DNA of 64,000 bases from Mobula hypostoma (lineage: Eukaryota): contig NC_086097.1 in NCBI RefSeq assembly GCF_963921235.1, positions 128,590,001-128,654,000 of the forward strand, written 5' to 3'. Below are positions 3,406 to 63,660 of the stretch, piece by piece. Position 1 is the first letter of the stretch, and each line of letters opens with the position of its first letter. Made by a program: the position numbers and the translations under genes. Under the pieces are notes generated by a model. It made no database searches, was not told the DNA's origin, and was given only the letters and a program-made list of their open reading frames with translations.

Positions 3406-5733
3406 GAAATCCTGTGGTAAGCAATTAATCGATAGCAGTTATACTTATTCCTGAATAAATAGCTCAATTTTACTCAATCAAGCTGAAAATATGAACTGAA
3501 GAAAATTGGCAACGGACACCAGTGCAAGTTACAACACACTTGCTTTTGGGATAATTTTTAATGGTGCACAAAAATATATATATAAATTGAAAGCAAAAGA
3601 AAAATGAGAATTACTCCAATGTGATGAAAGAACTTAACTCAGAAATACTGCTTGAATATAAATTTGACTTTGCGCAAGAATATTAGTAAGCCTTTGACTG
3701 CGAATGTTAATTGGAAATACAATGGGCACTCGATATCATTTGGTATCAGTGATCAAAAATGGTTTTCTGTCCATTTGTAACTAGGTCAAAAATGAAATAG
3801 CTCAAGGAAGGGAAAACACTCAGGAAAGTATAAATGCAAGAATGTGAATTAACTAAGTACAGAATGCATGGAAGGGAGTTACTATCAGTTAAAGTGCTGC
3901 ACTTTCGTCTGAAGGAAGGTTGCAATGGGACAGATGTTACGTACGATCATATCCCTTTCTAGCAGATTAAGCAGACGTACTATTAGTCACAAGGTGTGCA
4001 AAGATCACATTACTGCAGGTGGCAATGAAGTAAGCTTTACAGGAATGCCACTCGAAAACCATGAGTGATGAAGAATCATTAATCAGATCAGTATTGTGGA
4101 GAAGTCTGAACCAACACCCTTTCCCATTTAGCATCGAATTCTCCATTCTTGTTATTAAACAGATATAAAGCATCAGCATGCACCTTCCTGCATCAATAAA
4201 CAGTCAGGGACTGAATAAAATAGAATTCATTGTCAGAACAGGTTCAATATAGATTCTTTGGTAATCCTTTAACAACTAGATCTGAATCATTTCCTTCCTA
4301 GCAAATGTAAAACTGGTTGTTTCTTTCTTACGTAATGTGTGTCCTTTGACTTTTGTCGTATAGATGTCTGCATGGGGGTAGAGGAAAGCACAGAGAGAGT
4401 GAGCAAAGAGTTCAGAAATGAGAGGAAGTTTGAGTATGAGGAACACTGTGATAAGAGAAAGGTTTAAAAAGATTTTATTTCCACAGCACCTTTTGTATCC
4501 TCTGGAGCCCAACAGCACTGTATTTGGAATCAATGGCTTTTCTTCAGACATAGATACTTTTGGAGTAGCTGACATCCCAGCTAGCTCACTTCTAACTTTC
4601 CCAAAGGCACTGAGATAATCTCTAAAATAATGTTAGGCTGAACTCTTTCAGCCCTTCACTGATCCCTGCTTTTGTTCTCTTTTCCCTTTCTCCTTCTCTC
4701 TGGACTTTTACATTTGTTCCAGCTTGAACTTTTCCCAGCTCTGAAAAAAAAAGTCAGGAAGTGAAGTGTTATCTGTGGTTCTCCATAGCTGTTGCTTCAC
4801 TAGCCGAGTCCCTCTGGCCATTGTCTGTTTTCATTTCAGACCTGAGGTATCTTCAGACCTTTGCTACCTCAAGAGCTCTTCGCTACTATAATGTTGCAGT
4901 ACAGAACCTGGCCTTTGCTTCTCTTCGTCAATGTATTGGACTGGCATTCACTATCTATGGGTAACATGATAGATTAACCTTATAAGCTTGTTCTGGATGA
5001 AAACCACCTTGCAAAATGTATCCTGTGGATGCTTCTCAATCTGCCAGGATAAGGACCGAAGTGTTGGCGGGGGGGGGGGGGCGCGGTGGTCTATGATTAC
5101 GGGAGAGCCAAGAATGCATGGGTGAGGTTAGAACCACATCTGGCATGACCTTACTAAATGGCAGCAGAAGCTCAGGGGCCGAGTGCACCCAGTCCTTCCG
5201 GGCATGAGAAATATGAGTCTCCTCCACCACTTGTTGCAAGGTTGACTGATTACATCCTAGCCTCATCTCCAATCTGCTCCCTGTTCTCGTTAACCTATTC
5301 CTCCTTGATTCCCCTGTCCATCTCAGCTCGAGGCATAATCAGTGATTCAGCCTGCACTGCTCTCGATGACAGGAGAAGTAATTCCTTTTTATTCCTATTG
5401 GACAACTCTCCAATGCCCTCCACAGCCAGTGCTAGGGGACTTGTAATGATTTTGCTGTTATGTGCAATGCCACCAGCCCCTTTCCACATGAGTCTACAGA
5501 CATTGTTGAAGGGAGTCATATGCTAAAATAAAGCTCCAATTTTTGTTAATGCACATAGAAAACAACCTATTGATCTGGATACATCACAGTTGATATGGCA
5601 ACAGCTCAGTCCAAGACCAGAAGAAACTTCAGAGTGCTGTGGATGCAGCTCAGAACATCACAGAAACCAGTCTCCCCTCCATGAGCTCATCTACACCTCA
5701 CTGCCTTGTGAAAACAGCCAACGTAATCAAAGA

Positions 5734-6947
5734 ATCTGCTCTCAGGATGAGGCTTTTCATTCTAGGACGAGGGAGATGTCTTCATTTTTTAAAGAAAGGG
5801 GCTTCCCTTCCTCCACTATCAACTCTGTTCTTAAACGCATCTCCCCCATTTCACGTACATCTGCTCTCACTCCATCCTCCCACCACCCCACTAGGAATAG
5901 GGTTCCCCTGGTCCTCACCTACCACCCCACCAGCCTCCGGGTCCAACATATTATTCTCCGTAACTTCCGCCACCTCCAACGGGATCCCACCACTAAGCAT
6001 ATCTTTCCCTCCCCGCCTCTCTCTGCATTCCGCAGGGATCGCTCCCTACACAACTCCCTTGTCCATTCGTCCCCCCCATCCCTCCCCACTGATCTCCCTG
6101 CTGGCACTTATCCGTGTAAGCGGAACAAGTGCTACACATGCCCTTACACTTCCTCCCTTACCACCATTCAGGGCCCCAAACAGTCCTTCCAGGTGAGGCA
6201 TCACTTCACCTGTGAGTCGACTGGGGTGATATACTGCGTCCGGTGCTCCCGATGTGGCCTTTTATATATTGGTGAGACCCGACGCAGACTGGGAGACCGC
6301 TTTGCTGAACATCTACGCTCTGTCCGCCAGAGAAAGCAGGATCTCCCAGTGGCCACACATTTTAATTCCACATCCCATTCCCATTCTGACATGTCTATCC
6401 ACGGCCTCCTCTACTGTAAAGATGAAGCCACACTCAGGTTGGAGGAACAACACCTTATATTCCGTCTGGGTAGCCTCCAACCTGATGGCATGAACATTGA
6501 CTTCTCTAACTTCCGCTAGGCCCCACCTCCCCCTCGTACCCCATCTGTTACTCTTTTTAATGCACACATTCTTTCTCTCACTCTCCTTTTTCTCCCTCTG
6601 TCCCTCTGAATATACCTCTTGCTCATCCTCTGGGTCACCCCCCCCCCCGGTCTTTCTTCCCGGACCTCCTGTCCCATGATCCTCTCGTATCCCCTTTTGC
6701 CTATCACCTGTCCAGCTCTCGGCTCCATCCCTCCCCTTCCTGTCTTCTCCTATCATTTTGCATCTCCCCCTCCCCCTCCAGCTTTCAAATCCCTTACTCA
6801 CTCTTCCTTCAGTTAGTCCTGACGAAGGGTCTCGGCCTGAAACGTCGACTGCGCCTCTTCCTATAGATGCTGCCTGGCCTGCTGTGTTCACCAGCAACTT
6901 TGATGTATGTTGCTTGAATTTCCAGCATCTGCAGAATTCCTGTTGTT
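5734..6947 (+). mobile_element. Penelope-like element (Neptune-type), 5'-truncated: RT C-terminus, CxxxxCxxC linker, GIY-YIG, 3' UTR with hammerhead
   Basis: RICS, PLVLTYHP, CKRNKCYTC, VIYCVRCSRCGLLYIGET, HLRS, VATHF, PDGMN; TSD AACGTAATCAAAGA at 5720-5733 and 6948-6961. Confidence 0.95.
6815..6850 (+). ncRNA. Minimal type I hammerhead ribozyme (PLE-associated)
   Basis: AGTC-CTGACGA-AGG(gtctcgg)CCT-GAAA-CG-TC-GACT: stem I AGTC/GACT, both core boxes, palindromic ACGT stem III, GUC cleavage triplet ending at 6846. Confidence 0.85.
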
Positions 6948-8110
6948 AACGTAATCAAAGACCCCACCCACCCCAGATATTTTCTCTTTTTCCCACCTTT
7001 CTTCAGATAATAATGCAAAATCCTGAAAGCATGTACCACTGGGCTCAAGAACAGCTTCAGTCCCAAGGATATAAGATTATTGAATGGACCTCTTACAATT
7101 AGATGGTCCCTGACCTCACAATCTACCTTGTCATGGCCTTGCACCTTATTTTCTACCTGCACTGCACTTTCTCTATAACTGCAAATATACTGTACATTCT
7201 TCATTATGGTATCATTACCATAATGCTATGTGTTTGCATTATGATGTACTGATATAATGAAATAATCTGTAAAGATTGCATGCAAAACAAAGATTTTCAC
7301 TGTACATATGACAACAATAAACTAATTAATGAACAATAAGTAAAAAGTATACCACATACACCCAGGGCATGACGTGTATGAAACTGTCTTGTGTTCAGCC
7401 AGAAACTGGCCACTTGGTTTCTCAAGCCTGCTGCACTTTGCAATAATATCTTGCTGCCTTGATTATAACATCCACTGTGCATTCCTGGCTGCCCTCAGTA
7501 ACCTTCTGTCTGGCTTTTGTTCTCATCCTGATGGATTGTGATGCATCCGGTGGATATACATGGCATGGTTGCTATCAGGTTAATTGTCACTTTTCTTTGC
7601 TGTCTGGTTCAGTAAGTTCCAAACCACTTGAAACCGAGATATAGATTCCTTGGGTGTTTTCTTTCAAACGCTCACGTGACGCCACTATGTGGCTGCTTAA
7701 TGGGTGTCTTACAGTGCTGTGGACAAAAAAAAAGAGTATTCAATAGTGCTGTCAGAATGCTAGTCCAGAATATTGATTTCTAACGTGTATTTGTTCAGTA
7801 CCCAGCTACTAAATAGACAGCCATCTCTTTTATGAAAATCTTGATGAAAGATGATGACAAAGGATTTATACTGAGACACTGTATGCATCAGGATCTTGAT
7901 GTATGGGAGCTTTTCAAAGTATAAACCCATTGACTGTCTATCAGCAAAATAAATGTTCATTTGGGATCTGGTGAGGTTCAGAAATGAAACCCAGTCCAGA
8001 CCTGACCTGACCTCATCCAATCCAAACCCAAACCGACTACAGTTAATCCAACACACATCAAAGTTGCTGGTGAACGCAGCAGGCCAAGCAGCATCTGTAG
8101 GAAGAGGTGC

Positions 8111-8146
8111 AGTCGACGTTTCAGGCCGAGACCCTTCGTCAGGACT
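8111..8146 (-). ncRNA. Minimal hammerhead ribozyme copy
   Basis: Reverse complement of the 6815-6850 motif. Confidence 0.83.
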
Positions 8147-8973
8147 AACTGAAGGAAGAGTGAGTAAGGGATTTGAAAGTTGGAGGGGGAGGGTGAGATC
8201 CAAAATGACAGGAGAAGACAGGAGGGGGAGGGATGGAGCCAAGAGCTGGACAGGTGATAGGCAAAAGGGGATACGAGAGGATCATGGGACAGGAGGTCCA
8301 GGAAGAAAGACAAGGGGGGGGGACCCAGAGGATGGGCAAGAGGTATATTCAGAGGGACAGAGGGAGAAAAAGGAGAGTGAGAGAAAGAAGGTGTGCATAA
8401 AAATGAGTAACAGATGGGGTACAAGGGGAAGGTGGGGCCTTAGCGGAAGTTAGAGAAATCGATGTTCATGCTATCAGGTTGGAGGGTACCCAGACGGAAT
8501 ATAAGGTGTTGTTCCTCCAACCAGTGGCCACACATTTTAATTCCACATCCCATTCCCATTCTGACATGTCTATCCACGGCCTCCTCTACTGTAAAGATGA
8601 AGCCACACTCAGGTTGGAGGAACAACACCTTATATTCCGTCTGGGTAGCCTCCAACCTGATGGCATGAACATCGACTTCTCTAACTTCCGCTAAGGCCCC
8701 ACCTCCCCCCCCGTACCCCATCTGTTACTCATTTTTATGCACACATTCTTTCTCTCACTCTCCTTTTTCTCCCTCTGTCCCTCTGAATATACCTCTTGCC
8801 CCCCCCCCGTCTTTCTTCCCGGACCTCCTGTCCCATGATCCTCTCTTATCCCCTTTTGCCTATCACCTGTCCAGCTCTTGGCTCCATCCCTCCCCCTCCT
8901 GTCTTCTCCTATCATTTTGGATCTCCCCCTCCCCTTCCAACTTTCAAATCCCTTACTCACTCTTCCTTCAGTT

Positions 8974-9009
8974 AGTCCTGACGAAGGGTCTCGGCCTGAA
9001 ACGTCGACT
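8974..9009 (+). ncRNA. Minimal hammerhead ribozyme copy
   Basis: AGTCCTGACGAAGGGTCTCGGCCTGAAACGTCGACT. Confidence 0.85.
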
Positions 9010-9269
9010 GCACCTCTTCCTACAGATGCTGCCTAGCCTGCTGCGTTCACCAGCAACTTTGTTGTGTGTTGCTTGAATTTCCAGCATCTGCAGAATTCCT
9101 GTTGTTTACAGTTAATCCAATCTGACCTGGCCCAAGCAAAAGTTTGTCAATTGTCAAAATTGTTTTTTTTTTCCTTTTTATGCCCCCACTTTAAATTCAT
9201 GGGTGTTAAAGCATCAGATGACCTATGGTGGGGCCCAGTACATAGATAGATCACATGGAAGATGTGCCA

Positions 9270-9600
9270 ACTTCTTCATTTTCTCAGTACTTTAAGGTTC
9301 AGCATGCCACCAAACTCTCTAACAAATTTCTACAGATGTACTATTGAAAGTGTTCTGACTCACTTCATCCCAGTCAGATGCAGCAATTTGATTGCAGAGG
9401 AATATTAGAAGCTGCAGAGAGTAGTGGACTCTGCCTAATACATCATCGGCACATCCCTCCCCGCAACTGCTTCAAGATTGCAACGTCTGTCCTCACCATC
9501 CTGGCCATGGCATTTTCTTGTAGCTATCACTGAGCAGGAGGTCCAGAAGCCTGCAGTCCCAAACCACCCGGTTCAAGAAAAGGGTCTGACTTCCTTTCAA
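9270..9600 (+). mobile_element. Degenerate Rex1/Babar 3' fragment
   Basis: AAATTTCTACAGATGTACTATTGAAAGTGTTCTGAC (NFYRCTIESVL) motif. Confidence 0.65.
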
Positions 9601-9867
9601 TCATTCAGTACCAAATCCAACCATTACAGCCCTAATCACTGCTTCACCGTGACCACTTTCACCACCTTACACATCGGCCTTCATTACTCAGGGCACTGTG
9701 TGTCGGAGTTGTGAGGTTATGTTGCAGCTGTGCAGGCTGCTGGTGAGAGTACACGAAGGGTATTGTAAAGAAGAGCCTTGGCCCGAAATATGGACTGTTT
9801 ATTCATTTCCATAGATGTTGCCTGACCTGCTGAGTTCCTCCAGCAACTTGCGTGTGTTGCTCTGGAT

Positions 9868-10460
9868 TTTTTTTTAAATTATGAGGACACGCAGTCCTCT
9901 TTTATTGTTATTTAGTAATGCATGCATTAAGAAATGATGCAATGTTTTTCCAGAATGATATCACGAAAACACATGACAAACTGACTTAAAAACTAACAAA
10001 AACCACATAACTATAACATATAGTTATAACAGTGCAAAGCAATACCGTAATTTGATAAGAACAGACCATGGCACGGTAAAAGTCTCAAAGTCTCTCGAAA
10101 ATCGCATCATCTCACGCAGACGGTGAACCTCCAGCGCCGCCAACTTGCTGTTGCAGCATACTGGAAGCATCCGACCACAGTCCGACTCCAAGCCTGTCCG
10201 AAAACTCTGAGCCTCCAACCAGCTCTCTGACGCCGAGCACTGAGCACCATCTCTGCCGAGCACTTCGACCCCGGCCCCGGCAACAGGCAATAGGCAAAGC
10301 CAAGGATTTGGGGCCTTCCCCTCCGGAGATTCTCGATCGCACAGTAGCAGCGGCAGCAAAGCGGCATTTCAGAAGTTACTCCAGGTGTTCCTCCGTGCTT
10401 GTCACGTCTGTCTCCATCAAATCCTGATTGTGCACGGCCCCCTAGTTAACACATATGATA
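9868..10460 (-). mobile_element. Poly(A)-tailed non-LTR or SINE-like insertion inside an old PLE tail
   Basis: T-run at the left end, AATAAA on the minus strand, CpG-rich body; it splits the PLE tail CTCTGGATTT / CAGCACCTGCAGACTTTCTCGTGTTT. Confidence 0.55.
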
Positions 10461-10494
10461 CTTCAGCACCTGCAGACTTTCTCGTGTTTATTAT

Positions 10495-10980
10495 TAGGGG
10501 TATTGTGTATAGTTTTGGTCATCCTTTTACAAGAATGTTGCCAGGGCTCAAGGGCCTGATCTGAGCAAGCTAGAACTTTATTCCTTGGAGTGTAGGAGAC
10601 TGAGAGGTGACTTTAAAGAGGTGTATAAGATCAGGAGAGGCATAGATAAGATGAACAAACGTTGTCCTTTTCCCAGGGAAAAGGAATCAAAAACTGGAGG
10701 ACAGAAGTTTCAGTTGAGAGGATAAAGTTTTAAAGGTGATCTGAGGAGCAAATTAATCGCATAAAGGATGTTCCGTTTATGGAACAAGCTGCCAGAAAAA
10801 GTGGTTGAAGCAGGTGCAGTCACAATACTTGAAAGACATTTGGACTGGTACATGGATAGGAAAGGTTTAGAGGGACATGGATCAAATGCAGGAAAATGGC
10901 ACAGGATTAGATGATCACCTCAGTCAGTATGGAGAAGTTGGTCAAAGAGCCTGTTTCCATGCTGTATGACTATGACGGTA
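10495..10980 (+). mobile_element. Old CR1 3' end
   Basis: AGGAGACTGAGAGGTGACTTTAAAGAGGTGTATAAG (RRLRGDFKEVYK), CR1 3' UTR, CTATGA tail. Confidence 0.8.
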
Positions 10981-11114
10981 TGAATATGCTGCGGATGAGA
11001 CTGTGAATGCCGTGTGTATCTGTGAGAAGAAAGCTCAAGTGCACGCAAGCTAGAGTGTGGCCATCGTATCTGTCTGCGGAATTCAATCCTTGTGCCGCAG
11101 GGTATCGTCTCCAG

Positions 11115-19791: not shown

Positions 19792-20934
19792 CACAATTGC
19801 AAAATAATTTTCCAACTCCTATATTCAGTGAGCTGAATGATGCCCACCAGTATACTAAATGCCTTCTTCACCAGCCATCTCCCTGTGTCGCTGCTTTCAG
19901 TGAACTATCCACTTGAACTCCTAGGTCCCTTTGTTATGCAACACTTCCTAGGGTCCTATTATTCACTGTTTAAGACATTTGCTAGCTTGATCTCCAGCAA
20001 CGCAATGCCTCATATCCTTAAGGATAGCTTTCAGAAAGGAAAAGTCTATATAAAAGCCTCACGTTTTGTCAGGTGAAAATAGAGCTAATTAAAGGAGGGG
20101 TTAGGACTGGGGAAAGAGAGGTGCTCCTTCCTACAGAGTGCTCATGTGGGATGTTTTTTCTCTGTAGTGGATGCATGTTGAGTGTCTTATTGAATGCATC
20201 TGTCATTGTACAATCCTCGCTGTTCTGATGCCATATGTAATGGCAGATCATGAGGCCGGTGTCACAGGAACTGGAGGAGACTTGTTTTGTAGGGATGAAG
20301 TCCAGGGCTTGCTAAGATCAGTGTTTCAGAAGAGCAGAACCCTGCAACGGCAGCCATAAACCTGTGGGAGGTTTTCAGAGAGCCAGGCAGGCAGGGATGG
20401 AAGTGATTATGTCACAGACATCAGCGAGATAGAGTACATTCTGGAATAATAGGAATAGGAAAAGCAAAAGGGCTATCAAACACACCCCCCATCTGACCTC
20501 CTTGTAGTTTATCTGGCCACAATGAAAGATCAGGCCACTTTCTCCCTCTAATGATTTCCTCAGTAATCAAGCAACGGAAGTCGTTGAGTGCAGCGTGATT
20601 AGTTGTAAGGCACTTGCTAATCATTTGGTTCTCATGCTCAGAGCTGACAAATTCGTCTGCAACTCGGGGGCTCCGTTCAGTAGCTCTGGCAAGCAGGCTG
20701 CAAGGCCAGCGTTAGTTCCTGAGTAGGTGCTAATAGGCTGCTCCTCAGCCCAAAGTTTCTCATTTTGCTTCAAGCAGTGTGAGTCAGCAGAGGATCTATT
20801 CTGCAGTTTGTATTAAACTGACCTATGAGGAATAGTGCTTAAACCTTTGAAGGGAGAGTGCCTTTAAACTGCTCAGTTGTTGAGTGATGGTGTTGAAAAA
20901 GTGGGTAAGGGAAGATAAAGTTCCCAAATATGAT

Positions 20935-21070
20935 TCCTGATGGAAGGTCTCGGCCCAAAACGTTGACTGTTCACTCTTTTCCATAGATGCTGCCTGGCCT
21001 GCTGAGCTCCTCCAGCATTTTGTGTGTGTTGCTTGCATTTCCGGCATCTGTAGATTTTCCCTTGTTTGTG
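20935..21070 (+). mobile_element. Isolated PLE 3' terminus with decayed hammerhead
   Basis: CCTGATGGAAGGTCTCGGCCCAAAACGTTGACTG…ATAGATGCTGCCTGGCCTGCTGAG…. Confidence 0.8.
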
Positions 21071-21995
21071 AAAGTTCCCAAAGTGTTGGCTGGGTCAGGA
21101 TCTAATAACATCAGCACATGTGGAATCAAAAGTATATTGAAGTATCAGTAGTAGAGATCATAGAGCAGTACAAAACAGGAATAGGGCCTTTGACCCATGA
21201 TGTTATGCTGAACTAAGTAAATTAGTATTTAAATGCCTAGCTACTGTAACTTCAACTATTCTGTCAAATAATTTCCATATCCCTCCATCTTCCACACATT
21301 CACATGCTTGTCAAAGAGCCTCTTAGATGACGCTATCACATTTGCCTCCACCTTCATTCCACAGGCCCACCATTCTTCAAAACATTCCCTCATCTGCTGC
21401 ATATCTGTTTCTCAATGTTCCAGTGGCCATTGGGGGACAGTCATTAGAATGACTGCACCCTTTTTATTTTTGAGTTCTACACATACAGGCTCAGTGGATG
21501 AACCTCCCCATCGTGGCTTCTGAGTGCAGCTGTATTGCCTCTGATAATAGAGCAACTCAATTCCACCCCCCTCCCCACCCACACCCCAACCCTTTTACCT
21601 CCTTCACTATCTTTACTAAAACATTGAGTCCCTGGAATATTAAGCAACCAATCCTGTTTCTCCCTCTCTCTCTCTCAACTGAGTCAATGTAATCTCTACA
21701 ACATCATAGCTGAACTGCGTGAAATCTGTGGCAGTAGCACCATTCTAACTGTCTTACTACATTCCTTGTGAAGCAATGCAGTGAAATATCTCACTCTTAC
21801 TTATGTCTGTAATTTAACTCGCCCAATATTCTTCAAGATGTTTGTGTCCTTCTACCTTCGGCCTGTTAATCACCCATGAATTTCATCACTCTACTGTTCT
21901 GGCCAGTATTCACCTACTAAGACCTCAGTTCTGGAATAGCCTCCTTAAGCCTCTCTATCTCTCTTTGCTCATTTAAAAAGATTCTTCAATGTATT

Positions 21996-26262: not shown

Positions 26263-26782
26263 TATCTGAGGAAAGACATCCTTGCCATAGAGGGAGTACA
26301 AAGAAGGTTCATCAGATTGATTCCTGGGATGGCAGGTCTTTCATATGAAGAAAGACTGGATGAACTGGGCTTGTACTCGTTGGAATTTAGAAGATTGAGG
26401 GGGGATCTGATTGAAACGTTTAAGATCCTAAAGGGATTGGACAGGCTAGATGCGGGAAGATTGTTCCCGATGTTGGGGAGGTCTAGAACGAGGGGTCACA
26501 GTTTGAGGATAAAGGGGAAGCCTTTTAGGACCGAGGTTAGGAAAAACTTCTTCACACAGAGAGTGGTGAATCTGTGGAATTCTCTGCCACAGCAAACTGT
26601 TGAGGCCAGTTCATTAGCTATGTTTAAAAGGAAGTTAGATATGGCCCTTGTGGCTACAGGGGTCAGGGGGTATGGAGGGAAGGCTGGGTTCTGAGTTGGA
26701 TGATCAGCCATGATCATAATAAATGGCGGTGCAGGCTCGAAGGGCCGAATGGCCTACTCCTGCACCTATTTTCTATGTTTCT
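26263..26782 (+). mobile_element. Young CR1 3' end
   Basis: Open ORF2 C-terminus 26317-26694 (RRLRGDLIETFK, RTRGHSLRI, FFTQRVVNLWN); TTCTATGTTTC tail. Confidence 0.95.
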
Positions 26783-43449: not shown

Positions 43450-44520
43450 CAGTACTGAGCAAAAGTCTTAGGCACATTTCTATAGCTAGAGTGCATAAGA
43501 CTTTTGCACAGCACTGTAGTAATGTTATGTATTGCACTGTACTGCTGCCGCAAGAAAAAGACTGATTTCATGACATATGGGAGTGACGATACCTGATTCT
43601 AATATGAGTCTCTATAGTGCACTGAGAGTGGGAAGAGGGCAGGGAGAGTGGAATCAGGCCTTGGTGAGACCACACCTGGAGTATTGTGTGCAGTTTTGGT
43701 CCCCTAATCTGAGGAAAGACATCTTTGCCATAGAGGGAGTACAAAGAAGGTTCACCAGATTGATTCCTGGGATGGCAGGTCTTTCATATGAAGAAAGACT
43801 GGATGAACTGGGCTTGTACTCGTTGGAATTTAGAAGATTGAGAGGGGATCTGATTGAAACGTATAAGATCCTAAAGGGATTGGACAGGCTAGATGTGGGA
43901 AGATTGTTCCCGATGTGGGGGAGGTCCAGAACGAGGGGTCACAGTTTGAGGATAGAGGGGAAGCCTTTTAGGACCGAGATTAGGAAAAACTTCTTCACAC
44001 AGAGAGTGGTGAATCTGTGGAATTCTCTGCCACAGCAAACTGTTGAGGCCAGTTCATTAGCTATGTTTAAAAGGAAGTTAGATATGGCCCTTGTGGCTAC
44101 AGGGGTCAGGGGGTATGGAGGGAAGGCTGGGTTCTGAGTTGGATGATCAGCCATGATCATAATAAATGGCGGTGCAGGCTCGAAGGGCCGAATGGCCTAC
44201 TCCTGCACCTATTTTCTATGTTTCTATGTTTCTATGGTTGGGAAAAGGGGAAGAGAGAGGGAACGGAGTGGGAAGCATGACAGAGACATTCTGTAATGAT
44301 CAATAAAGCAATTGGTTCGAATCAAATGACCTTGCCTGGTGTCCCAGGGCTGGGTGCATCTGTACCTGTGCCAATCCCCACACCTGGCACCTGTCCTACA
44401 CCCCTACTACGGTGCTCCACCCTCACCATTCACAACATCCTTAGCTCCCGTCGGATTTACAAAATCACTCTCCGCTCCTAGTTATATATATGTGTGTACC
44501 AAGACTTTTGCACAGTACTG
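43450..44520. mobile_element. Tc1/mariner-type MITE-like element with three TIR copies
   Basis: TIR CAGTACTG(T/A)GCAAAAGTCTTAGGCAC forward at 43450-43475, reverse at 43491-43516 and about 44495-44520; each reverse copy is followed by TA. Confidence 0.7.
43656..44236 (+). mobile_element. Young CR1 3' end nested in the MITE; near-identical to 26263-26782
   Basis: LVRPHLEYCVQFWSP…GGKAGF; (TTCTATGT)n tail. Confidence 0.95.
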
Positions 44521-45740: not shown

Positions 45741-47084
45741 GGGACTTCCTGCTTTTTCCCAGTGCAAATAATGATCATCTACATTCTCTTCAGATTCTAG
45801 TTATTCTATTCTCTATTTTGTATTTTGTTATAAACCTATTTCCAATTATCTATACTTCCATATCAAAAATACAAAGGAGGTGATTATTTTACCAATAAAT
45901 TCCATTACTAGGATTGCATTAACTATGGACATCTTTGCAGAAAATGCATTCAGATTATCCCTCTGCTCTGCTCTATCCATGAGCGTGACATCTGTGGATT
46001 CAGCTTTGTTGCTGCAAGCGTGGGGTATTGGCTGGGTAGAGCTACAAGTAGAACATGCTTAATTGCAGGCACTTACTCTCAAATGAGCAGCAGAGTCTGG
46101 TGCGACAATATATCATGGTCATACCACAAGGTACAGTCAGTCATTAAAGGTACCCTCGCATTGTGCTGTTTCACCTTAAAATCTGCACAAACCAATTTAC
46201 ACATTTGAACCTCTTCAGCAGTAAACAATAAGACATATGAGCCAAACTAGGTCATTGAGTCAACTCTGCCAGTCAATCATGGCTAGTTTATTTTAATTCT
46301 CAACCCCATTCTTTTGCCTTCTCTCCATAATTTTTGATACCCTTACTAATTTAAGAACCTATCAAGCTCCACTTTAAATATAGATTCAGATTCATTAAAT
46401 GATTATATGTACCTTGAAACATACAATGAAATTTATTGTTTATGTTAACAACCAAAGATGTGCTGGGGGCAGCCGGTAAGTGTTGCCACATGACTCAGCA
46501 AACAACATAGCATGCCCACAGTGTTCAGCAGAACAACCCCCACAAACAACAGCACGACAACAACACCAACAAAGCAAAGCAAGGCAACAGCAAAACAGGC
46601 ATAACACACTCAAAATGCTGGAGGAACTCAGCAGGTCAGGGAGCATCTACAGAGCATCGATATTTTGGGCTAAGACCCTTCTTCAGGACAAAGCAAAACC
46701 TCCCTCCCGAATACCCATTAGTTGACCACCGAGCTATCAATTCCATCATCGATGTCACCGACCCCTGTGGAACCCCTGCAGAATAGGTTAAGTATTTGCT
46801 GTACATATACAGCTCACATTATCAACTTGTCTTCTTGATATCTACAATCTCCTCCACTGTAAAAATGTACTTGACTTCGCTCGTGTGCACTCCAAGTGGT
46901 CCGTCTTCAAAGATTGAAGGATAGCGTTATTCGTTACATGTATAATCTAAACTTTGAAACATACAGTGAAATGTAGTTTTACGTCAACAACCAACACTGT
47001 CCCAGGATGGTGCTGAGGGTAGCCTGCAAGTATCATCGCTCATCCAGCATCCACATAGCGTGCCCACAACTCACTAGCCCATAT

Positions 47085-49445: not shown

Positions 49446-51344
49446 CTATGCTTTTTTTGTGTGCATGCTGTTTTGTCTGTGTTACATGTGGTAAAAGCAA
49501 GGCCGTGGGACAGACCCAGGAAGCCAGACAGTATTAGTAGAAAGGGAAAAGCTGAGCCAAAGGATGAGAGGCAGAAATGGCCAGCTCTAAATCAGGCAGA
49601 TAGAGTTAGTGAGTTAGGTAAAGTTCGAGAATTCAGTATTGAGTGTGGAGGGTTGCAACATGCCTAGTTAGAGGTAAAAAGTGTTTTTAACCTCATTCTA
49701 GACCTTGTTGCAACAGTACAGGAGGTCACAGACAGGTCAAAGAGGGATGGGGGAATTAAATAGGCAGGTGTTCAGAAGTTCAGGATGAGTTCTGCTTGAA
49801 TTTGGAATCATTCAATAAATTAATGCATGCTTTAACAAGAAGTCAACAGAAGCTTTATGCCTTGTCACACCCGAGTTGAATTTTTGTTTGATATGGCAAT
49901 GTACAAATGCTTACACTATTACACAAGTACAGAAAAAAAAAACTGTTGGAAGAACTCAGCATGTCAAACAGCATCTGTGGAAGCAAAGTGGTGGTCAACA
50001 TTTCCGGTCAAGACCTATACAATGTGTGCCACCACACTCCAGGGACGAGGAGCACGTAATTTTACTCAGCTGCCTTAAGAAGAAAGGAACATTTACTTCT
50101 ACATTGAAACTTCTCTTCTCCTCACTGTTTCAAGATTGTGTCTGTAATAAAATATGACACTTTGAAATGCAGTGTCTGGAGAGTGATAAATATGAATTAC
50201 TTGCAAGACATATTTTGTACATATACCATATTAATGACTTTTAATCCACCTATAATTCTGCTTTCGATCCAATGAATAATTTTCTTTTTATACCTTACTG
50301 TCATTGCTGTAGTCCACAATGATCTCCCAACAATAATGTTTCAGATCTACTTCTAAGTGTCATTAGCACTGTTTTCATTTTCCTGCAACTGTGCTATATA
50401 TAACTGTAATAGATGAATAGATGTTAAGGAGTAAGTATAGGGCCACAATTCAATCTCAAGAGTTCAAATGACGTCTATAAACCATAAAAATGAAGTTCAA
50501 GTGATTTATGGATGTAATCTGAATCGCTGGAATAAATTACAGCTGCATCACTCATTCCCAGTCATCCAGAATTCTATATGTCCCCATACTGTCCTGTTAT
50601 ATGTTTAACGCATTAGGTCAAACTACTCTGAATTCCATTTGCCACTTTACCAATTGCCAGCATTATTATCTCAATTATGCCACACTTTTGGAACTAGGAG
50701 AGTGTCAAAATCAATCATTATTTGGTCCCTCGTAGCCACTATATATTTATCACAACCTAGATTAATAATGAAAGGAAGGAAGTCAGTAGACCTTGTGGAT
50801 GATGCCCTGTTTGACCAAATATGAGTGCCCTGGTTTGACCAAATGTAGATTTTGGCCCGCTCTTATTTCTTGAGTATGGGCTGTGCACAACTCTGTCAAA
50901 TTCCTGAATGAGGTATTCTTGAGCAATCTTCACGCATATGATTACATTAAGTTTCATAGGGAAATATTTTTTAGTGCATGAGAAAATGCAAGGAGTGTAT
51001 GATAAAACATGGTTGCCTGTCTAAAAATAGGCAAGAAGAGCAGCTGCAGCACACATACTAAATCCTGGAGGAACTCAGCAGATCAGACAGTATCTATGGA
51101 AATAAATAAACTGTTGACTTGTCGGGGCAAGACCCTTCATCAGGCCAGGAAAGGAATGGGGAGGATGCCAGAATAAGGAGGGGGAGGAGGACAAGTTTGA
51201 AGGTGATAGGTGAAGCAAAAGGCAGGAGAGCAGCAGAGATCACAGAGAGGGAGTAGTGGGAGAGGATCTCAGTGAACTCCCAAGATTTAAACTTCTTCAG
51301 GGGAGGTATACCGCGAAGAGGCTTCGCAATGGAGCGACAAATCA

Positions 51345-52450
51345 TAAACACAAGAGATCCTGCAGATTCTGGAAATCCAAAGCAACACACACAAAATGCT
51401 AGAGAGACTCAGCAGGTCAGGCCTGAATGGAAATGAATAAACATTTGATATTGTGGGCTGAAATCTTTCATCGAAATTGGAAGGGAAGGGAAAAGATGCC
51501 AAAATAAAAAGGGGGGGGGGAGGGTGAGCAGAACAAGCTAGGTTAGCCTCTACATCCAACACATTATCTTCTGCATTTCTAACATCTCCAAAGGCATCTT
51601 ACCACTGAACATAACTTTACCTCCCCCTCCCCGCTTTCCACAGGAATCACTCCCTCCATGATTTGGTTGTCCATTTGTTCCTCGTCACTAATCTCCCTCC
51701 TGACACTTATCCTTGCAAACGGCCTAAGTGCTACACCTGCCCATTCACCTCCTCTCTCACCTCCATTTAGGGCACCAAACAGTCCTTCCAGGTGAGACAA
51801 CACTTCACCTGTGAATCAGCTAGGGTGGTCTATGAGTTCCTGATGCAGCCTCTTTTACATTGGTGAGACGCCTCATAAATTGGGTGACCGCTTCTCTGAG
51901 TACCTCCGCTCCCTCTACCAAATGTGTAACTTCCCAGTGGCCAAACATTTTAAGTCCAATTCCCATTCCCGGTCTGACATGTCAGTCCATGACCTCCTCT
52001 TGTGCCAAGATGAGGCTATCCTCAAGGTAGAGAAGCAATATCTTATATTCCAATATTCCATCTGGGTAGCCTCCAACCTGATAGCATGAATATCAATTTC
52101 TTCTTCCAGTAAAAATTATTCCCTCATCTCCCCTCTTCTATTCACCATTCTGGCCTTTTACCTCTTTTCACCTGCCTATCACTTGCCCCTCGGACCCCTC
52201 CTCCTTCACTTTCTCCTGTGGTCCACTCTCCTCTTCTACCAGATTCTTTCTTCTCCTGCCCTTCACCTTCCCCACACACTTTGCTTCGCCTATCACCTCC
52301 TAGCTAGCCTCCTGCCCCTCCCCCCACCATTTTATCCTGGTGTCTTTCCCCCTTACTTTTCAGTCCCGAAGAAGGGTCTTGACCCAAAATGTCGACTATT
52401 TATTCATTTCCATACATGCTGCCTGAACTGCTGAGTTCCTTTCATGTGTG
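51345..52450. mobile_element. Older PLE: inverted 3' fragment (minus, about 51345-51545) joined to a plus-strand GIY-YIG and 3' part
   Basis: GDRFSEYLRS, VAKHFKS; PLE tails face outward at both ends; another minus-strand tail at about 51045-51230. Confidence 0.8.
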
Positions 52451-52869
52451 TTACTTAGTCAAGGACCCTACTTGTTCCCACTTCCATCAGGCAGAAGCTA
52501 CGAAAGTTTGAGAACATGAACCATGGCAGCTTCTACCTGGCTTCTGTAAGAGTCTTGAATAGACCTTTTGTATGTTAAAGATAAACTCTATATCCTCCAG
52601 TCCATCTCCCACTTGCACCTTGTGTGTCTACCTGCACTCTTTAACTGCAATGCTATATTCTGCATTTTGTTATTATTTTCCTTTTGTACTACCTTGATGT
52701 ACTTCTGTTTGGAATGATATGTCTGGGTGGTATGCAAATAAAGCTTTACACAAACCTTGGTACATCTGACAATGACAAACCAATTACCTTTTGAAAATAA
52801 CTACCAAATCTGCCTAATCACCCTTTCAGGACAGTGCATTCCATACCAGAACAACTTGCTGAGGTTGTG

Positions 52870-54254: not shown

Positions 54255-54450
54255 AGACTGCTGATGCTGAAATCTGAAGCAATGAACAAAATGCTGAAGG
54301 AACTCAGCAGGTCAGGCAGCATCTGTGGAAGAAAATAGACCATCGACATTTTGGGTCGAGCCCATCTATTAATTCCAGATGAAGCAACTCGACCCAAAAC
54401 ATCAACTGTCCATTTCCCTCCACAGATATTCCTGACCTGCTGACTTCCTC
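54255..54450. repeat. Short inverted repeat of PLE 3' termini
   Basis: CAGCAGGTCAGG…GGGTCGAG / CTCGACCC…CCTGACCTGCTG. Confidence 0.75.
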
Positions 54451-56380
54451 TGGAGTATTAAAGTTACATCTCCTATATTCATTTTCTGACTATTAAAATT
54501 TGTAAAAAGAGTCAATAAAGACAAGAGTGACTTTTAAATACTTAGTGTGAAATTCTGAAATATCAGCTACAATGCTGCAGAAAGAAATGGGCAACATACT
54601 TAATCCACAAATGGTATGAGATAAAGATTCAAAGTATATTTATTATCGACGTATATATACGGTATACAATCCTATGATTCATATTCTTGCAAACAAAAGA
54701 AAAACCTTTGAACCCAGTTAAAGAAAAAACCCACATAGCAAAAACCATCAAACACACAACACACGAAAACAAGAACAAATCACGCAAGCAACAAAAAGTG
54801 AGGAGATAACACACAGAGCATTAAACCACAGAATCCCAAAAGTAAGTCCACAGCCATGAACCTCTGAGGCGGGTGAAGCTGGTCCAGGAACAAATTGTCA
54901 CAGAGCTAGTTCCATGCCGAAGTGCCTCGATCAAGTCGTGCAAATAGTAAAAAAGAGTAAACAAAAACAGATGGAACATGAACTGCAGTTCCCAAAAGGG
55001 AAAAAAAAGATAACTAAGGATGTAAGAGAGATTTCTTTCCTTATACACATTATAAAGAATTGTTCAAGCATTTCTGGATTCCTGAAGCCATCTGAGCATT
55101 TTACTTTCTTATATGTTATCCCGCTGTGAAGAGAACAAGTCTTTAATTGGATGACAGATCTTTTATTATTATCCACTTTCTTTAATACGGAAAACTATCA
55201 GTCCAAGTTAGGTACCAAGCCACAAGACACGATATCAGGATATATGACCAAAAGCTTGGTCAAAGAGATAAGCTTGAAGGGGCAGCTCAAAGGCGGAAAG
55301 AGCCGTATGAGGATGTACAGATGGAGCTGCAGGGTTTCAGTCAATGCCCTGAGGTCATGGTCACCATTAGTGATCCAACAAAAATTAGGAATACACAAGA
55401 CCAGAGTTCTGTGCATGGACGTATGTAGCTTTGGCTGATGAAAATCAATAAGTACCAATAACAATATATAGTATATAGTATGTAAGTGATAACATTAGAT
55501 TGGCATGTTCATGGCCAGGAGGGGGCAGGCAAGACAGACAGTGCATCTTGGGAGCTTCTGGTATGCATTTGTACCCTGCAGTTGGCAGTCATCATACCAG
55601 GGTTGTTTATCTAGAGGACTTCAGCAATTGATTACAAACCTGCTCAAAACTTCAGGCATTGATTTTGAAGTACTTGAAGAAATTATAATCATTTTCCTTG
55701 GATATAATACAAATTTGAGAAAAGCACTTACTTTTACTGTGTAGTATATTTGACTATTGCACCCCAGATTCTTCCTTGTCATTGATGACTGAGTTGTGAA
55801 CACTCAGTAACATTATTCCATGTAACCAATGGTAGATTTTGGATTTTTTTTCAGAAATCCAAAGGTTGCAGTTGTGATTCAGGGTTCTCCAATATCAGGC
55901 ACTGTTTGCCACTTTCTCCAGTGCAGTAAAGGAAAATCACTGGAATTAAACGTGAATTTGGATTATGAACTTTGAAAATTTTTCATATTGTTGCATGATA
56001 TTTACTGATATTCCACTGGTAAGTTATGCGGAATTATATAAAAATAAATAATTTTGGGACAGTATATTTAAGATTTATAGGCTTTTTGTTTTAAATATGT
56101 GGGGTATTTTTAGCATTTTTATTTAGTTTATTTTTGATATTTCCCCTTCTATCTCAATCATACATTAACATTGCAAAGTGCTTGGAATTTTCTGGGTATA
56201 ACAAGTAATTTGCATTCACTACTGCCCTATCCTTTTGTTCCACTCTTACCTTGTACTGATCTTCAAGCAGCAAACTCATCCCGGAAGCAAGCTCCAAGAT
56301 GGTCACAGAAAGCCTGAGTGGAATAAGGCCCTGCACAAAGATTTACTTTGACAGCAAGTTAAGCCATGCCCCTGGGTGGA

Positions 56381-59325: not shown

Positions 59326-59721
59326 GAAAAATGAGTTTAAAGGAAAGCATTTAAGAATTGAAAATGAACTTCCCTCTCAATGTCAATATCAATGAAGTTA
59401 CTAGTCTAACCTCATGCATATTCAGTGGGAAGGTTACCAATGTAATTGGTGATGAAGATGGAACTGGGGTTTCATGCAAGCAAAGGAAATTTATCACCCC
59501 CTGGTGTGTATGACAATAAACTATTCTGAATCTGGATCCACAAGAAAGCTGCTATCAATGCATGGAATTACTAAAAGTTCTCAAAAAAATCAAGCCAAGT
59601 GAATTAAAAATTGAATTGAATTGAAACAACAGGAATTCTCCAGATGCTGGAAATTCAAGCAACATACATCAAAGTTGCTGGTGAACGCAGCAGGCCAAGT
59701 AGCATCTATAGGAAGAGGCGC

Positions 59722-59757
59722 AGTTGACGTTTCAGGCCGAGACCCTTCGTCAGGACT
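59722..59757 (-). ncRNA. Minimal hammerhead ribozyme copy (stem I variant, AACT instead of GACT)
   Basis: Core boxes CTGACGA and GAAA and the GTC triplet are intact. Confidence 0.75.
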
Positions 59758-60052
59758 AACTGAAGGAAGAGTGAGTAAGGGATTTGAAAGCTGGAGGGGG
59801 AGGGGGAGATGCAAAATGATAGGAGAAGACAGGAGAGGGAGGGATAGAGCCGAGAGCTGGACAGGTGATAGGCAAAAGGGGATACGAGAGGATCATGGGA
59901 CAGGAGGTCCGGGAAGAAAGACAAGGGGGGGGGGTGACCCAGAGGATGGGCAAGAGGTATATTCAGAGGGACAGAGGGAGAAAAAAGAGAGTGAGAGAAA
60001 GAATATGTGCATAAAAATGAGTAACAGATGGGGTACGAGGGGGAGGTGGGGC

Positions 60053-61355
60053 CTAGCGGAAGTTAGAGAAGTCGATGTTCATGCCATCAGGTTGGAGGCT
60101 ACCCAGACGGAATATAAGGTGTTGTTCCTCCAACCTGAGTGTGGCTTCATCTTTACAGTAGAGGAGGCCGTGGATAGACATGTCAGAATGGGAATGGGAT
60201 GTGGAATTAAAATGTGTGGCCACTGGGAGATCCTGCTTTCTCTGGCGGATAGAGCGTAGATGTTCAGCAAAGCGGTCTCCCAGTCTGCGTCGGGTCTCAC
60301 CAATATATAAAAGGCCACATCGGGAGCACCGGACGCAGTATATCACCCCAGTCGACTCACAGGTGAAGTGATGCCTCACCTGGAAGGACTGTTTGGGGCC
60401 CTGAATGGTGGTAAGGGAGGAAGTGTAAGGGCATGTGTAGCACTTGTTCCGCTTACACGGATAAGTGCCAGGAGGGAGATCAGTGGGGAGGGATGGTGGG
60501 GACGAATGGACAAGGGAGTTGTGTAGGGAGCGATCCCTGTGGAATGCAGAGAGAAGGGGGGAGGGAAAGATGTGCTTAGTGGTGGGATCCCGTTGGAGGT
60601 GGCGGAAGTTACGGAGAATAATATGTTGGACCCGGAGGCTGGTGGGGTGGTAGGTGAGGACCAGGGGAACCCTATTCCTAGTGGGGTGGTGGGAGGATGG
60701 AGTGAGAGCAGATGTACGTGAAATGGGGGAGATGCGTTTAAGAGCAGAGTTGATAGTGGAGGAAGGGAAGCCCCTTTCTTTAAAAAAGGAAGACATCTCC
60801 CTCATCCTAGAATGAAAAGCCTCATCCTGAGAGCAGATGCGGCGGAGACGGAGGAATTGCGAGAAGGGGATGGCGTTTTTGCAAGAGACAGGGTGAGAAG
60901 AGGAATAGTCCAGATAGCTGTGAGAGTCAGTAGGCTTATAGTAGACATCAGTGGATAAGCTGTCTCCAGAGACAGAGACAGAAAGATCTAGAAAGGGGAG
61001 GGAGGTGTCGGAAATGGACCAGGTAAACTTGAGGGCAGGGTGAAAGTTAATAAAGTCAAAGAGTTCTGCATGCGTGCAGGAAGCAGCGCCAATGCAGTCG
61101 TCAATGTAGCAAAGGAAAAGTGGGGTACAGATACCAGAATAGGCACGGAACATAGATTGTTCCACAAACCCAAAACAAAGGCAGGCATAGCTAGGACCCA
61201 TACGGGTGCCCATAGCTACACCTTGAGTTTGGAGGAAATGGGAGGAGCAAAAGGAGAAATTATTAAGAGTAAGGACTAATTCCGCTAGACGGAGCAGAGT
61301 GGTGGTAGAGGGGAACTGATTAGGTCTGTAATCCAAAAAGAAGCGTAGAGCTTTG
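60053..61355 (-). pseudogene. 5'-truncated PLE ORF (RT C-terminal half plus GIY-YIG), open
   Basis: GVAMGT, YIDD, FLDL, KPTD, RICS, CKRNKCYTC, IYC…YIGET; lacks the N-terminal RT motifs and a true ATG start. Confidence 0.9.
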
Positions 61356-62642
61356 AGACCTAATCAGTTCCCCTCTACCACCACTCTGCTCCGTCCAGCG
61401 GAATTAGTCCTTACTCTTAATAATTTCTCCTTTTGCTCCTCCCATTTCCTCCAGACTAAAGGTGTAGCTATGGGCACCCGTATGGGTCCTAGCTATGCCT
61501 GCCTTTGTTTTGGGTTTGTGGAACAATCTATGTTCCGTGCCTATTCTGGTATCTGTCCCCCACTTTTCCTTCGCTACATCGACGACTGCATTGGCGCTGC
61601 TTCCTTCACGCATGCAGAACTCGTTGACTTTATTAACTTTGCCTCCAACTTTCACCCTGCCCTCAAGTTTACCTGGTCCATTTCCGACACCTCCCTCCCC
61701 TTTCTAGATCTTTCTGTCTCTGTCTCTGGAGACAGCTTAACCACTGATGTCTACTATAAGCCTACTGACTCTCACAGCTATCTGGACTATTCCTCTTCTC
61801 ACCCTGTCTCTTGCAAAAACGCCATCCCCTTCTTGCAATTCCTCCGTCTCCGCCGCATCTGCTCTCAGGATGAGGCTTTTCATTCTAGGACGAGGGAGAT
61901 GTCTTCCTTTTTTAAAGAAAGGGGCTTCCCTTCCTCCACTATCAACTCTGCTCTTAAACGCATCTCCCCCATTTCACGTACATCTGCTCTCACTCCATCC
62001 TCCCACCACCCCACTAGGAATAGGGTTCCCCTGGTCCTCACCTACCACCCCACCAGCCTCCGGGTCCAACATATTATTCTCCGTAACTTCCGCCACCTCC
62101 AACGGGATCCCACCACTAAGCACATCTTTCCCTCCCCCCCTCTCTCTGCATTCCGCAGGGATCGCTCCCTACACAACTCCCTTGTCCATTCGTCCCCCCC
62201 ATCCCTCCCCACTGATCTCCCTCCTGGCACTTATCTGTGTAAGCGGAACAAGTGCTACACATGCCCTTACACTTCCTCCCTTACCACCATTCAGGGCCCC
62301 AAACAGTCCTTCCAGGTGAGGCATCACTTCACCTGTGAGTCAACTGGGGTGATATACTGCGTCCGGTGCTCCCGATGTGGCCTTTTATATATTGGTGAGA
62401 CCCGACGCAGACTGGGAGACCGCTTTGCTGAACATCTACGCTCTGTCCGCCAGAGAAAGCAGGATCTCCCAGTGGCCACACATTTTAATTCCACATCCCA
62501 TTCCCATTCTGACATGTCTATCCACGGCCTCCTCTACTGTAAAGATGAAGCCACACTCAGGTTGGAGGAACAACACCTTATATTCCGTCTGGGTAGCCTC
62601 CAACCTGATGGCATGAACATCGACTTCTCTAACTTCCGCTAG
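61356..62642 (+). pseudogene. 5'-truncated PLE ORF (RT C-terminal half plus GIY-YIG), open
   Basis: Mirror of the minus arm: QTKGVAMG, RYIDD, GIY-YIG motifs. Confidence 0.9.
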
Positions 62643-62935
62643 GCCCCACCTCCCCCTCGTACCCCATCTGTTACTCATTTTTATGCACACATTCTTTCTC
62701 TCACTCTCCTTTTTCTCCCTCTGTCCCTCTGAATATACCTCTTGCCCATCCTCTGGGTCACCCCCCCCCTGTCTTTCTTCCCGGACCTCCTGTCCCATGA
62801 TCCTCTCGTATCCCCTTTTGCCTATCACCTGTCCAGCTCTCGGCTCTATCCCTCCCCCTCCTGTCTTCTCCTATCATTTTGCATCTCGCCCTCCCCCTCC
62901 TGCTTTCAAATCCCTTACTCACTCTTTCTTCAGTT

Positions 62936-62971
62936 AGTCCTGACGAAGGGTCTCGGCCTGAAACGTCGACT
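62936..62971 (+). ncRNA. Minimal hammerhead ribozyme copy
   Basis: AGTCCTGACGAAGGGTCTCGGCCTGAAACGTCGACT. Confidence 0.85.
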
Positions 62972-63020
62972 GCACCTCTTCCTATAGATGCTGCTTGGCC
63001 TGCTGCGTTCACCAGCAACT

Positions 63021-63660
63021 TTGAATTGAATTGACTTTATTTCTTACGTCCCTCACATGCATGAGGAGTAAAAATATCTACGTTACGTCTCCCTCTGAAT
63101 GTGCAATGTGCAAATTATGGTAATTTGTAATAAATAGTATATACGGTAAGATAAACAACAGATCAGTCAATATCGCTTAGAAATACGATTGTGTTGGCAT
63201 GAATTAATCAGTCTGATGGCCTGGTGGAAGAAATTATCCTGGAGCCTGTTGGTCCTGGCTATTATGCTGCAGTACTGTTTCCCGGGATGGTAGCAGCTGG
63301 AAAAGTTTGTGGTTGGGGTGACACGGGCCCCAGTGATCCTTCGGGCTCTTTTTACGCACCTGTTGCTGTAAATGTCCTGAATAGTGGGAAGTTCACAGAA
63401 GCGCTGGGCTGGCCACACTACTCCTGCAATTGAGGGAAGTACAGTTCCCATACAACCAGTCAGGATGCTCTTAATTGTGCCCCTGTAGAAAGTCCTTAAG
63501 ATTTGGGGACTTATGCCGAACTTTAACCAGCTGAGGTGAAAGAGGCACGGTGTGCTTTTTCTCGCCACACAGCCGGTACGTACAGACCAAGTGAGGTCCT
63601 CAGTGATGTGTATAATGAGGAACTTAAAGTTGTTCATCCTCTCAACCCCAGATCCATTGG
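63021..63660 (-). mobile_element. Rex1/Babar 3' end with (TTCAA)n tail, the target of the PLE palindrome
   Basis: NNFKFL, TFYRGTIKSILTGC, NFFHQAIRL; AATAAAGTCAATTCAATTCAA tail on the minus strand. Confidence 0.85.

What the first reader, a model, noticed from the sequence alone, without database searches (positions are those of the whole stretch)
8038..9120. Second PLE palindrome with the same asymmetric architecture
Seen: a non-repetitive 14-bp TSD (TACAGTTAATCCAA) encloses a minus arm and a plus arm. The arm with the complete 3' end (right) is again the longer one, by about 89 nt (8523-8611). The inverted arm is 3'-truncated and meets the TSD through CAA microhomology, and the centre has CC microhomology. 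Repeating the 59.6-kb design at a unique target makes a mechanistic rule more likely than chance.
Basis: partly seen in the sequence, partly recalled or inferred. Interest (0 to 1): 0.7.

Follow-up and report, generated by a model that had tools for sequence, protein, structure and literature searches.

The report
Head-to-head Penelope retroelement insertion
This 1.07-kb hairpin-shaped insert is a real, single insertion of a Penelope-like jumping gene in the back-to-back form already described for such elements, and its two arms may have been copied from two slightly different RNAs rather than one folded-back copy.

Summary
In detail: 14-bp TSD (8038-8051 = 9107-9120), minus arm 8052-8522, 89-nt spacer, plus arm 8523-9106, CAA and CC microhomologies. 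A related organism's contigs appear to cross the site with one TSD copy and no element. The element is a Neptune/Nematis-type Penelope-like element (PLE). The architecture is published: an inverted 5'-truncated copy beside the main one, within one TSD, with a 30-40-nt 'tail' on one end only. The '3' truncation' is that missing tail (35 nt), an end shared with a solo copy here. The long-arm rule rests on 2 of 2 young cases; an old pair without TSD runs the other way. Both arms share six sites against younger copies, yet differ at 17/459 sites, more than the ~1% flank divergence to the empty allele, and 3 of 6 testable differences lie on family-polymorphic sites. I favour priming from both nicks on two templates (0.5) over fold-back of one cDNA (0.4). 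The scan noted this pattern before elsewhere in this genome.

The parts
8038..8051 (+). Target-site duplication, left copy (14 nt); last 3 nt (CAA) are microhomology with the inverted arm
8052..8522 (-). Inverted arm: end of GIY-YIG ORF, 3' UTR/pLTR, minimal hammerhead motif; lacks the last 35 nt ('tail') of the element
8112..8145 (-). Minimal hammerhead-like motif of the inverted arm (identical to the right-arm copy)
   Evidence: motif read against the description in PMC4209133; no Rfam hit at gathering score
8521..8522 (.). Centre junction, CC microhomology shared by both arms
8523..8611 (+). 89-nt unpaired spacer = extra 5' part of the plus arm (GIY-YIG coding; identical to the three younger copies)
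8523..9106 (+). Plus arm with complete 3' end; codes the last ~55 aa of the GIY-YIG endonuclease, then 3' UTR/pLTR; 15-18-nt deletion at 8798/8799
8975..9008 (+). Minimal hammerhead-like motif (CTGACGA ... GAAA CG TC)
   Evidence: description in PMC4209133; cleavage untested
9072..9106 (+). 35-nt 'tail', present on this arm only
   Evidence: tail concept from PMC8557442, PMC11167929
9107..9120 (+). Target-site duplication, right copy; organism B contigs start to match exactly here
59612..63034 (.). Comparison: the younger head-to-head pair (tail-bearing minus arm 59626-61361, tail-less plus arm 61356-63024, about 44 nt short; 5' offset 34 nt; arms differ 26/1656)
5720..6961 (+). Comparison: simple 5'-truncated copy (5734-6947) with complete tail and its own exact 14-nt TSD

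Best explanation
One integration event of an endonuclease-bearing PLE. The GIY-YIG endonuclease cut both strands about 14 nt apart (inferred from the TSD). The bottom-strand 3' end primed reverse transcription at the element's outer start, giving the tail-bearing right arm. The top-strand 3' end (...CAA) paired with UUG at the inner start 35 nt upstream and primed a second cDNA on a second RNA, or on another tandem unit of the same RNA, of the same lineage. Both cDNAs stopped after about 0.5 kb, their 3' ends annealed through CC/GG, and repair filled the gaps. Shown: the geometry, TSD, microhomologies, recurring inner end, apparent empty allele. Inferred: the order of events, the two templates, and that the tail-bearing cDNA leads and so tends to be longer.
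For: The inner end recurs: 8kL 35, solo 46k copy 36, 51.05k 34, 52.4k 32 nt short, against full ends in 6k, 18k, 21k, 51.35k, 59L; the solo 46k copy has a 12/15 TSD-like repeat, so the inner end does not need a fold-back. Purified Poseidon protein cuts and extends both strands, starts at two sites that bound the tail and is predicted to be a dimer (PMC11167929). Arms differ 17/459 (3.7%) while the flank differs 6/594 from the empty allele of organism B (Fisher P=0.005). 3 of 6 arm differences in the part covered by old copies (8676, 9033, 9062) fall on family-polymorphic sites against a background of 17/169 (P=0.016). In the displayed read variants no rare base is shared by both arms. Head-to-head junctions in four relatives have 5' offsets of roughly 0.3-2.4 kb (L001, L066, L075, L076), and in the old 51.3-52.5 kb pair each arm holds sequence the other lacks.
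Against: The 5' ends of the arms are close (89 and 34 nt) in both young pairs; independent truncation gives about 1e-3 under an assumed exponential length model, and dual priming needs an extra assumption (concerted, coupled synthesis) to explain this. Without CpG sites the divergence excess is not significant (11/428 vs 6/594, P=0.08), and against the same region of the 59.6-kb arms it is P=0.11. An old polymorphism, recombination in the flank or precise excision in organism B would void the age bound. Mutable sites recur, which inflates the 3-of-6 test. The 59.6-kb arms show no discordant site that needs two templates and are closer to each other (1.37%) than to the 6k copy (1.71, 2.14%). 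The in vitro work is on another clade (Poseidon).
Confidence: 0.5

Rival explanations
1. Fold-back (self-priming) on one cDNA: target-primed synthesis from the outer start stalls at 8521, the cDNA 3' end (GG) snaps back onto CC 89 nt earlier, is extended as a sense copy, stops 35 nt short of the end and anneals to the top-strand overhang by TTG/CAA. Arms were identical at birth; the tail-bearing arm must be the longer one.
For: Near-symmetric arms with the same polarity in 2 of 2 young pairs; centre microhomology CC and AGACCT, the latter folding as a 6-bp stem; six sites shared by both arms against the younger copies; self-priming is the published reading of PLE palindromic junctions (PMC3846280 Discussion, there on an antisense template); L001 also has the tail-like extension on its long arm.
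Against: The six shared states are not shown to be private to one source (where displayed they are common family states). Arm divergence exceeds the flank divergence to the empty allele, and differences fall on polymorphic sites. The inner end occurs on solo copies. The 51.3-52.5 kb pair cannot be a fold-back if it is one event. Microhomology at the centre is expected under both models.
Confidence: 0.4
2. Two separate insertions, or a later rearrangement or gene conversion with another family copy, made or altered the palindrome.
For: The family is extremely abundant (159,633 contigs of run X1 laid on the 1180-nt stretch, nearly all on the element part); conversion could explain the mosaic ancestral/derived states at 8676, 9033, 9062.
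Against: One exact TSD encloses both arms and no second TSD lies at the centre; the apparent empty allele carries one TSD copy; same design at 59.6 kb.
Confidence: 0.08
3. Assembly or library artefact (fold-back chimera).
For: The centre and left junctions were not seen in reads: the laid stretch held one arm only and 239 joints were hidden. The X1 contig over the right junction has only 20 letters on the element side.
Against: Arms differ by 3.7% plus a deletion; an exact 14-nt TSD flanks them; the arms carry their own family-type variants; runs X1-X4 hold 83-87% of the words of 7000-11000 (possibly the source sample).
Confidence: 0.02

Closest known systems
Inverted-pLTR insertions of EN+ PLEs, e.g. 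Pen2a_Av of Adineta vaga (PMC3846280; passages and Discussion read)
   Same: Head-to-head arrangement inside one TSD (9-10 bp there), inverted copy shorter, 31-bp tail optionally on one of the inverted ends, palindromic centre read as self-priming.
   Different: Here both arms are 5'-truncated and near-symmetric, reach into the endonuclease ORF, TSD is 14 nt, host is a vertebrate-type genome, and the arms show signs of non-identical templates.
General PLE insertion scheme in Craig et al. 2021 (PMC8557442; passages read)
   Same: [quoted passage not shown]
   Different: The passages seen give no rule on which arm is longer and leave the mechanism undefined.
PAc, Poseidon element of Anolis, in vitro (PMC11167929; parts 1-2 of 4 read)
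   Same: Two RT start sites bounding the tail; both target strands cut and extended; hammerhead motif in the pLTR; AT-rich target.
   Different: Other clade (no linker Zn finger); the text read does not model inverted insertions; start region is AC-rich in the RNA there, whereas the inner end here is GU-rich on the sense strand.
L1 twin priming (Ostertag & Kazazian 2001, recalled; cited in PMC10191854 passages)
   Same: Second target strand primes an inverted cDNA by microhomology; two cDNAs join by microhomology; one TSD.
   Different: In L1 both primers use one RNA and the two parts hardly overlap; here the arms overlap over 459 columns, so one linear template cannot serve both without displacement, fold-back or a tandem unit.

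Membership tests
EN+ Penelope-like elements | RT followed by C-terminal GIY-YIG endonuclease in one ORF | tested here: met
   Longer family copy at 61353-62639: YIDD motif, GIY-YIG PF01541 E=3e-4 (21.6 bits, just under the 22.6 cut-off), 52-54% identity over 98% of the query to 800-900-aa proteins with RT (PF00078). The 8-kb arms are 93-95% identical to that copy.
EN+ Penelope-like elements | CCHH motif with two cysteines between GIY and YIG | tested here: met
   VIYCVRCSRCGLLYIG at aa 333, H361 and H377 invariant among 15 aligned proteins.
EN+ Penelope-like elements | 5' truncation, tandem or inverted copies, TSD, one-sided 30-40-nt tail | tested here: met
   definition from PMC8557442.
EN+ Penelope-like elements | Minimal hammerhead motif in the pLTR | tested here: inconclusive
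   Core motif present on both arms and fits the description in PMC4209133; Rfam gave 0 hits in the window; the single-strand fold is not better than shuffles (z -1.27); cleavage untested.
Neptune/Nematis clades | CX2-5CxxC linker upstream of the endonuclease | tested here: met
   CKRNKCYTC at aa 296; diagnostic per PMC8557442.
Neptune versus Nematis | RT phylogeny with named references | not tested
   No labelled reference sequences were returned by the searches.
Penelope/Poseidon clade | Absence of the linker Zn-finger | tested here: not met
   Linker present.
Single-template fold-back product | Arms identical at birth, sharing source-private variants | tested here: inconclusive
   17/459 differences, none of the displayed rare bases shared, 3 of 6 on polymorphic sites, but age of the insertion is only loosely bounded.

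The most novel reading that the evidence does not exclude
Head-to-head PLE insertions are made by concerted priming from both nicks on two RNA templates, one at each of the two start sites, with the tail-bearing cDNA leading; the arm-length polarity and 5'-end coupling are then a kinetic record of a dimeric integration complex, and this very abundant family offers enough natural copies to settle self-priming against dual priming. I did not find this rule or test in five searches of the library; Arkhipova 2006 and Evgen'ev & Arkhipova 2005 were not read.
Probability: 0.35. Interest if true: 0.55.

Novelty: new member of a known kind. Interest (0 to 1): 0.27.

Why it matters
As a locus it is a dead 1-kb retroelement fragment and ordinary. 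Its value is as a data point: papers up to 2024 call the steps that form PLE tandem/inverted insertions undefined, with self-priming proposed from structure and two-strand priming seen in vitro. A young pair with an apparent empty allele in a relative allows the arms' divergence to be compared with the insertion's maximum age, and repeated over hundreds of loci this would decide the mechanism.

Tried and rejected
Genome-wide count of palindromes: no assembly held. Exact search for the hammerhead-region motif found 0 matches in viral contigs and 0 in metagenome contigs. Read laying was meant to list strand-change joints and the inner 3' end across the family, but 239 joints, 2407 loose-end rows and 26 variant rows were hidden, so neither was seen; depth gives no copy number. 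Metagenome relatives: 80 loci, 36 with some inverted repeat of 50 nt or more; 11 inspected at their ends and 6 by tblastn; none gave a TSD-bounded two-armed PLE, several end at contig ends, and L066 (98.6%) could be an amplification chimera, so they do not test the long-arm rule. The old 54.3-kb mini-palindrome is too decayed to place its 5' ends and has no TSD. In one search the 59R end was over-extended by the local aligner into the TSD (read by eye as 44 nt short) and the 12.7k, 9.8k, 32k, 54kL and 54kR ends were ambiguous and left out of the two clusters. The idea that the six sites shared by both arms prove one template was dropped. The reading that 8940 G marks a subfamily specific to organism A (26% in X1, about 0.1% in X5/X6, 2.6% in X9) was not relied on, since the linked 8920 C was under 3%. 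Rfam: 0 hits. Look-ups of earlier findings near the site, by words and by sequence were empty.

Full report
Observation. The window shows TACAGTTAATCCAA at 8038-8051 and 9107-9120 and nowhere else. Between them lie a minus arm (8052-8522), an 89-nt spacer and a plus arm (8523-9106); the insert with one TSD copy is 1069 nt. The arms differ at 17 of 459 columns (6 at CpG sites) and by a 15-nt deletion in the right arm. CAA at the left junction and CC at the centre each fit both sides. The inverted arm stops 35 nt before the element's end.

Identity. The plus arm codes the end of a GIY-YIG endonuclease. Longer copies at 5.7-6.9 kb and 59.6-63.0 kb are 93-95% identical to the arms and code RT followed by GIY-YIG, with the CCHH motif and a CX4CxxC linker. 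By the criteria in PMC8557442 (passages) this is a Neptune- or Nematis-type PLE; I did not separate the two. Both arms carry an identical minimal hammerhead-like motif (description in PMC4209133, passages; no Rfam hit). That the host is a cartilaginous fish rests on my recall of such repeats and on earlier scan notes, not on a call.

One event. Run search returned organism A (83-87% of words, possibly the source sample) and organism B (54-57%, one sample). Laid on 8521-9700, two organism B contigs (X5 record 15, X6 record 24) begin to match exactly at 9107, the first base of the right TSD, with 757 upstream letters that do not fit the element. I read this as the empty allele; the 757 letters were not displayed, so their identity with the left flank is inferred. 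The flank differs from A by 6 substitutions and 1 gap in 594 nt. An organism A contig covers 9087-9434 without differences, but with only 20 letters on the element side. Family 3' ends pile up at 9107 (235, 198 and 227 contigs in X1, X5, X6).

What is already known. PMC3846280 (passages and Discussion) describes Pen2a with an inverted, shorter pLTR inside one 9-bp TSD and a 31-bp tail optionally on one end, calls head-to-head the most frequent arrangement and infers self-priming. [quoted passage not shown] PMC8969392 (passages) repeats this as curation guidance. PMC11167929 (parts 1-2 of 4) shows that a PLE protein cuts and extends both strands and starts at two sites that bound the tail. So the 'asymmetric architecture' is the standard PLE signature. 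In this window 3' ends fall into a full class (6k, 8k right, 18k, 21k, 51.35k, 59k left) and a class 32-36 nt short (8k left, 46k, 51.05k, 52.4k), with the 59k right arm about 44 short; five of the fifteen mapped ends were ambiguous. Earlier scan notes report the same pattern at other places in this genome; I treat them as leads.

The long-arm rule. Both young pairs have the tail-bearing arm longer at the 5' side (89 and 34 nt), and their 5' ends are closer than independent truncation would give (about 1e-3 under an assumed exponential model). Two cases agreeing in sign is weak. An old head-to-head pair at 51.3-52.5 kb has a 200-nt tail-bearing arm and a 900-nt tail-less arm, but the arms are only about 72% alike and no TSD was found. 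Relatives from metagenomes show head-to-head junctions with offsets of about 0.3, 0.56, 1.6 and 2.4 kb (L075, L066, L076, L001; estimated from tblastn positions), mostly without visible outer ends. The rule is neither established nor refuted.

One template or two. Both arms share six states that the three younger copies lack (8694, 8879, 8920, 8940, 9023, 9066), so they come from one lineage; where the read table shows these sites they are common family states, not private marks. Against identity at birth: 17/459 between arms versus 6/594 in the flank to the empty allele (P=0.005; without CpG P=0.08), and 3 of 6 differences in the part covered by old copies sit on family-polymorphic sites (left arm old-type at 8676; right arm old-type at 9033 and 9062; P=0.016 against 17/169). 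For identity at birth: the tight 5' coupling, and the 59.6-kb arms (26/1656 differences) show nothing that needs two templates. An old polymorphism, excision in B, conversion or recurrent mutation could each explain the excess.

Mechanism. Both models give the same junction sequences. Dual priming (0.5): staggered cut, outer-start cDNA from the bottom strand, inner-start cDNA from the top strand via CAA/UUG, two cDNAs joined by CC/GG. Fold-back (0.4): one cDNA snaps back over an 89-nt loop and its copy is captured by the top-strand overhang. Geometry, TSD, microhomologies and the recurring inner end are shown; the order of events is inferred. Passages of bioRxiv 2024.08.27.596794 and part 1 of 5 of bioRxiv 2026.07.22.740005 added nothing on this point.

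Verdict. A real, ordinary PLE insertion of a known form. The arm-length rule and the template question are not answered in what I found (searches, listings only unless named above) and are testable with the whole genome. Interest 0.27.

Noticed in passing
window 51051-52455: Old complex PLE cluster: two minus units in partial tandem (one tail-less, one with tail, about 100 nt of unassigned sequence between) abutting head-to-head a 900-nt tail-less plus copy; no TSD found.
   Followed up: partly
window 5720-6961: Simple 5'-truncated copy with an exact 14-nt TSD, inserted in an older repeat; all three young insertions in the window have 14-nt TSDs, which suggests a fixed cut stagger.
   Followed up: partly
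window 54260-54460: Decayed mini-palindrome of two PLE 3' ends, tail-like sequence on the left arm only.
   Followed up: partly
window 46582-46699: Solo short PLE 3' end without the tail, flanked by a 12/15 TSD-like repeat.
   Followed up: partly
window 20917-21083: Short (about 135 nt) PLE 3' end with tail and a 12-13-nt TSD.
   Followed up: partly
window 8940 and 9012 (reads): Variants carried by the younger copies are frequent in organism A (26%, 14% by depth) and rare in organism B (about 0.1%, 1%), which may mark a lineage-specific burst.
   Followed up: no
L001:1005-3690: A metagenome contig holds a near full-length relative with a 128-nt inverted copy of its 3' region upstream, CTGANGA motif on both arms and an extension on the long arm only.
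   Followed up: partly
window 26264-26782 and 43707-44225: Two 519-nt LINE RT fragments 98% identical, a young non-PLE family.
   Followed up: no
proteins P0106, P0108, P0112: Distant PLE relatives of about 1050-1110 aa carry extra Pfam domains PF02338/PF10275 (OTU-type, name recalled).
   Followed up: no
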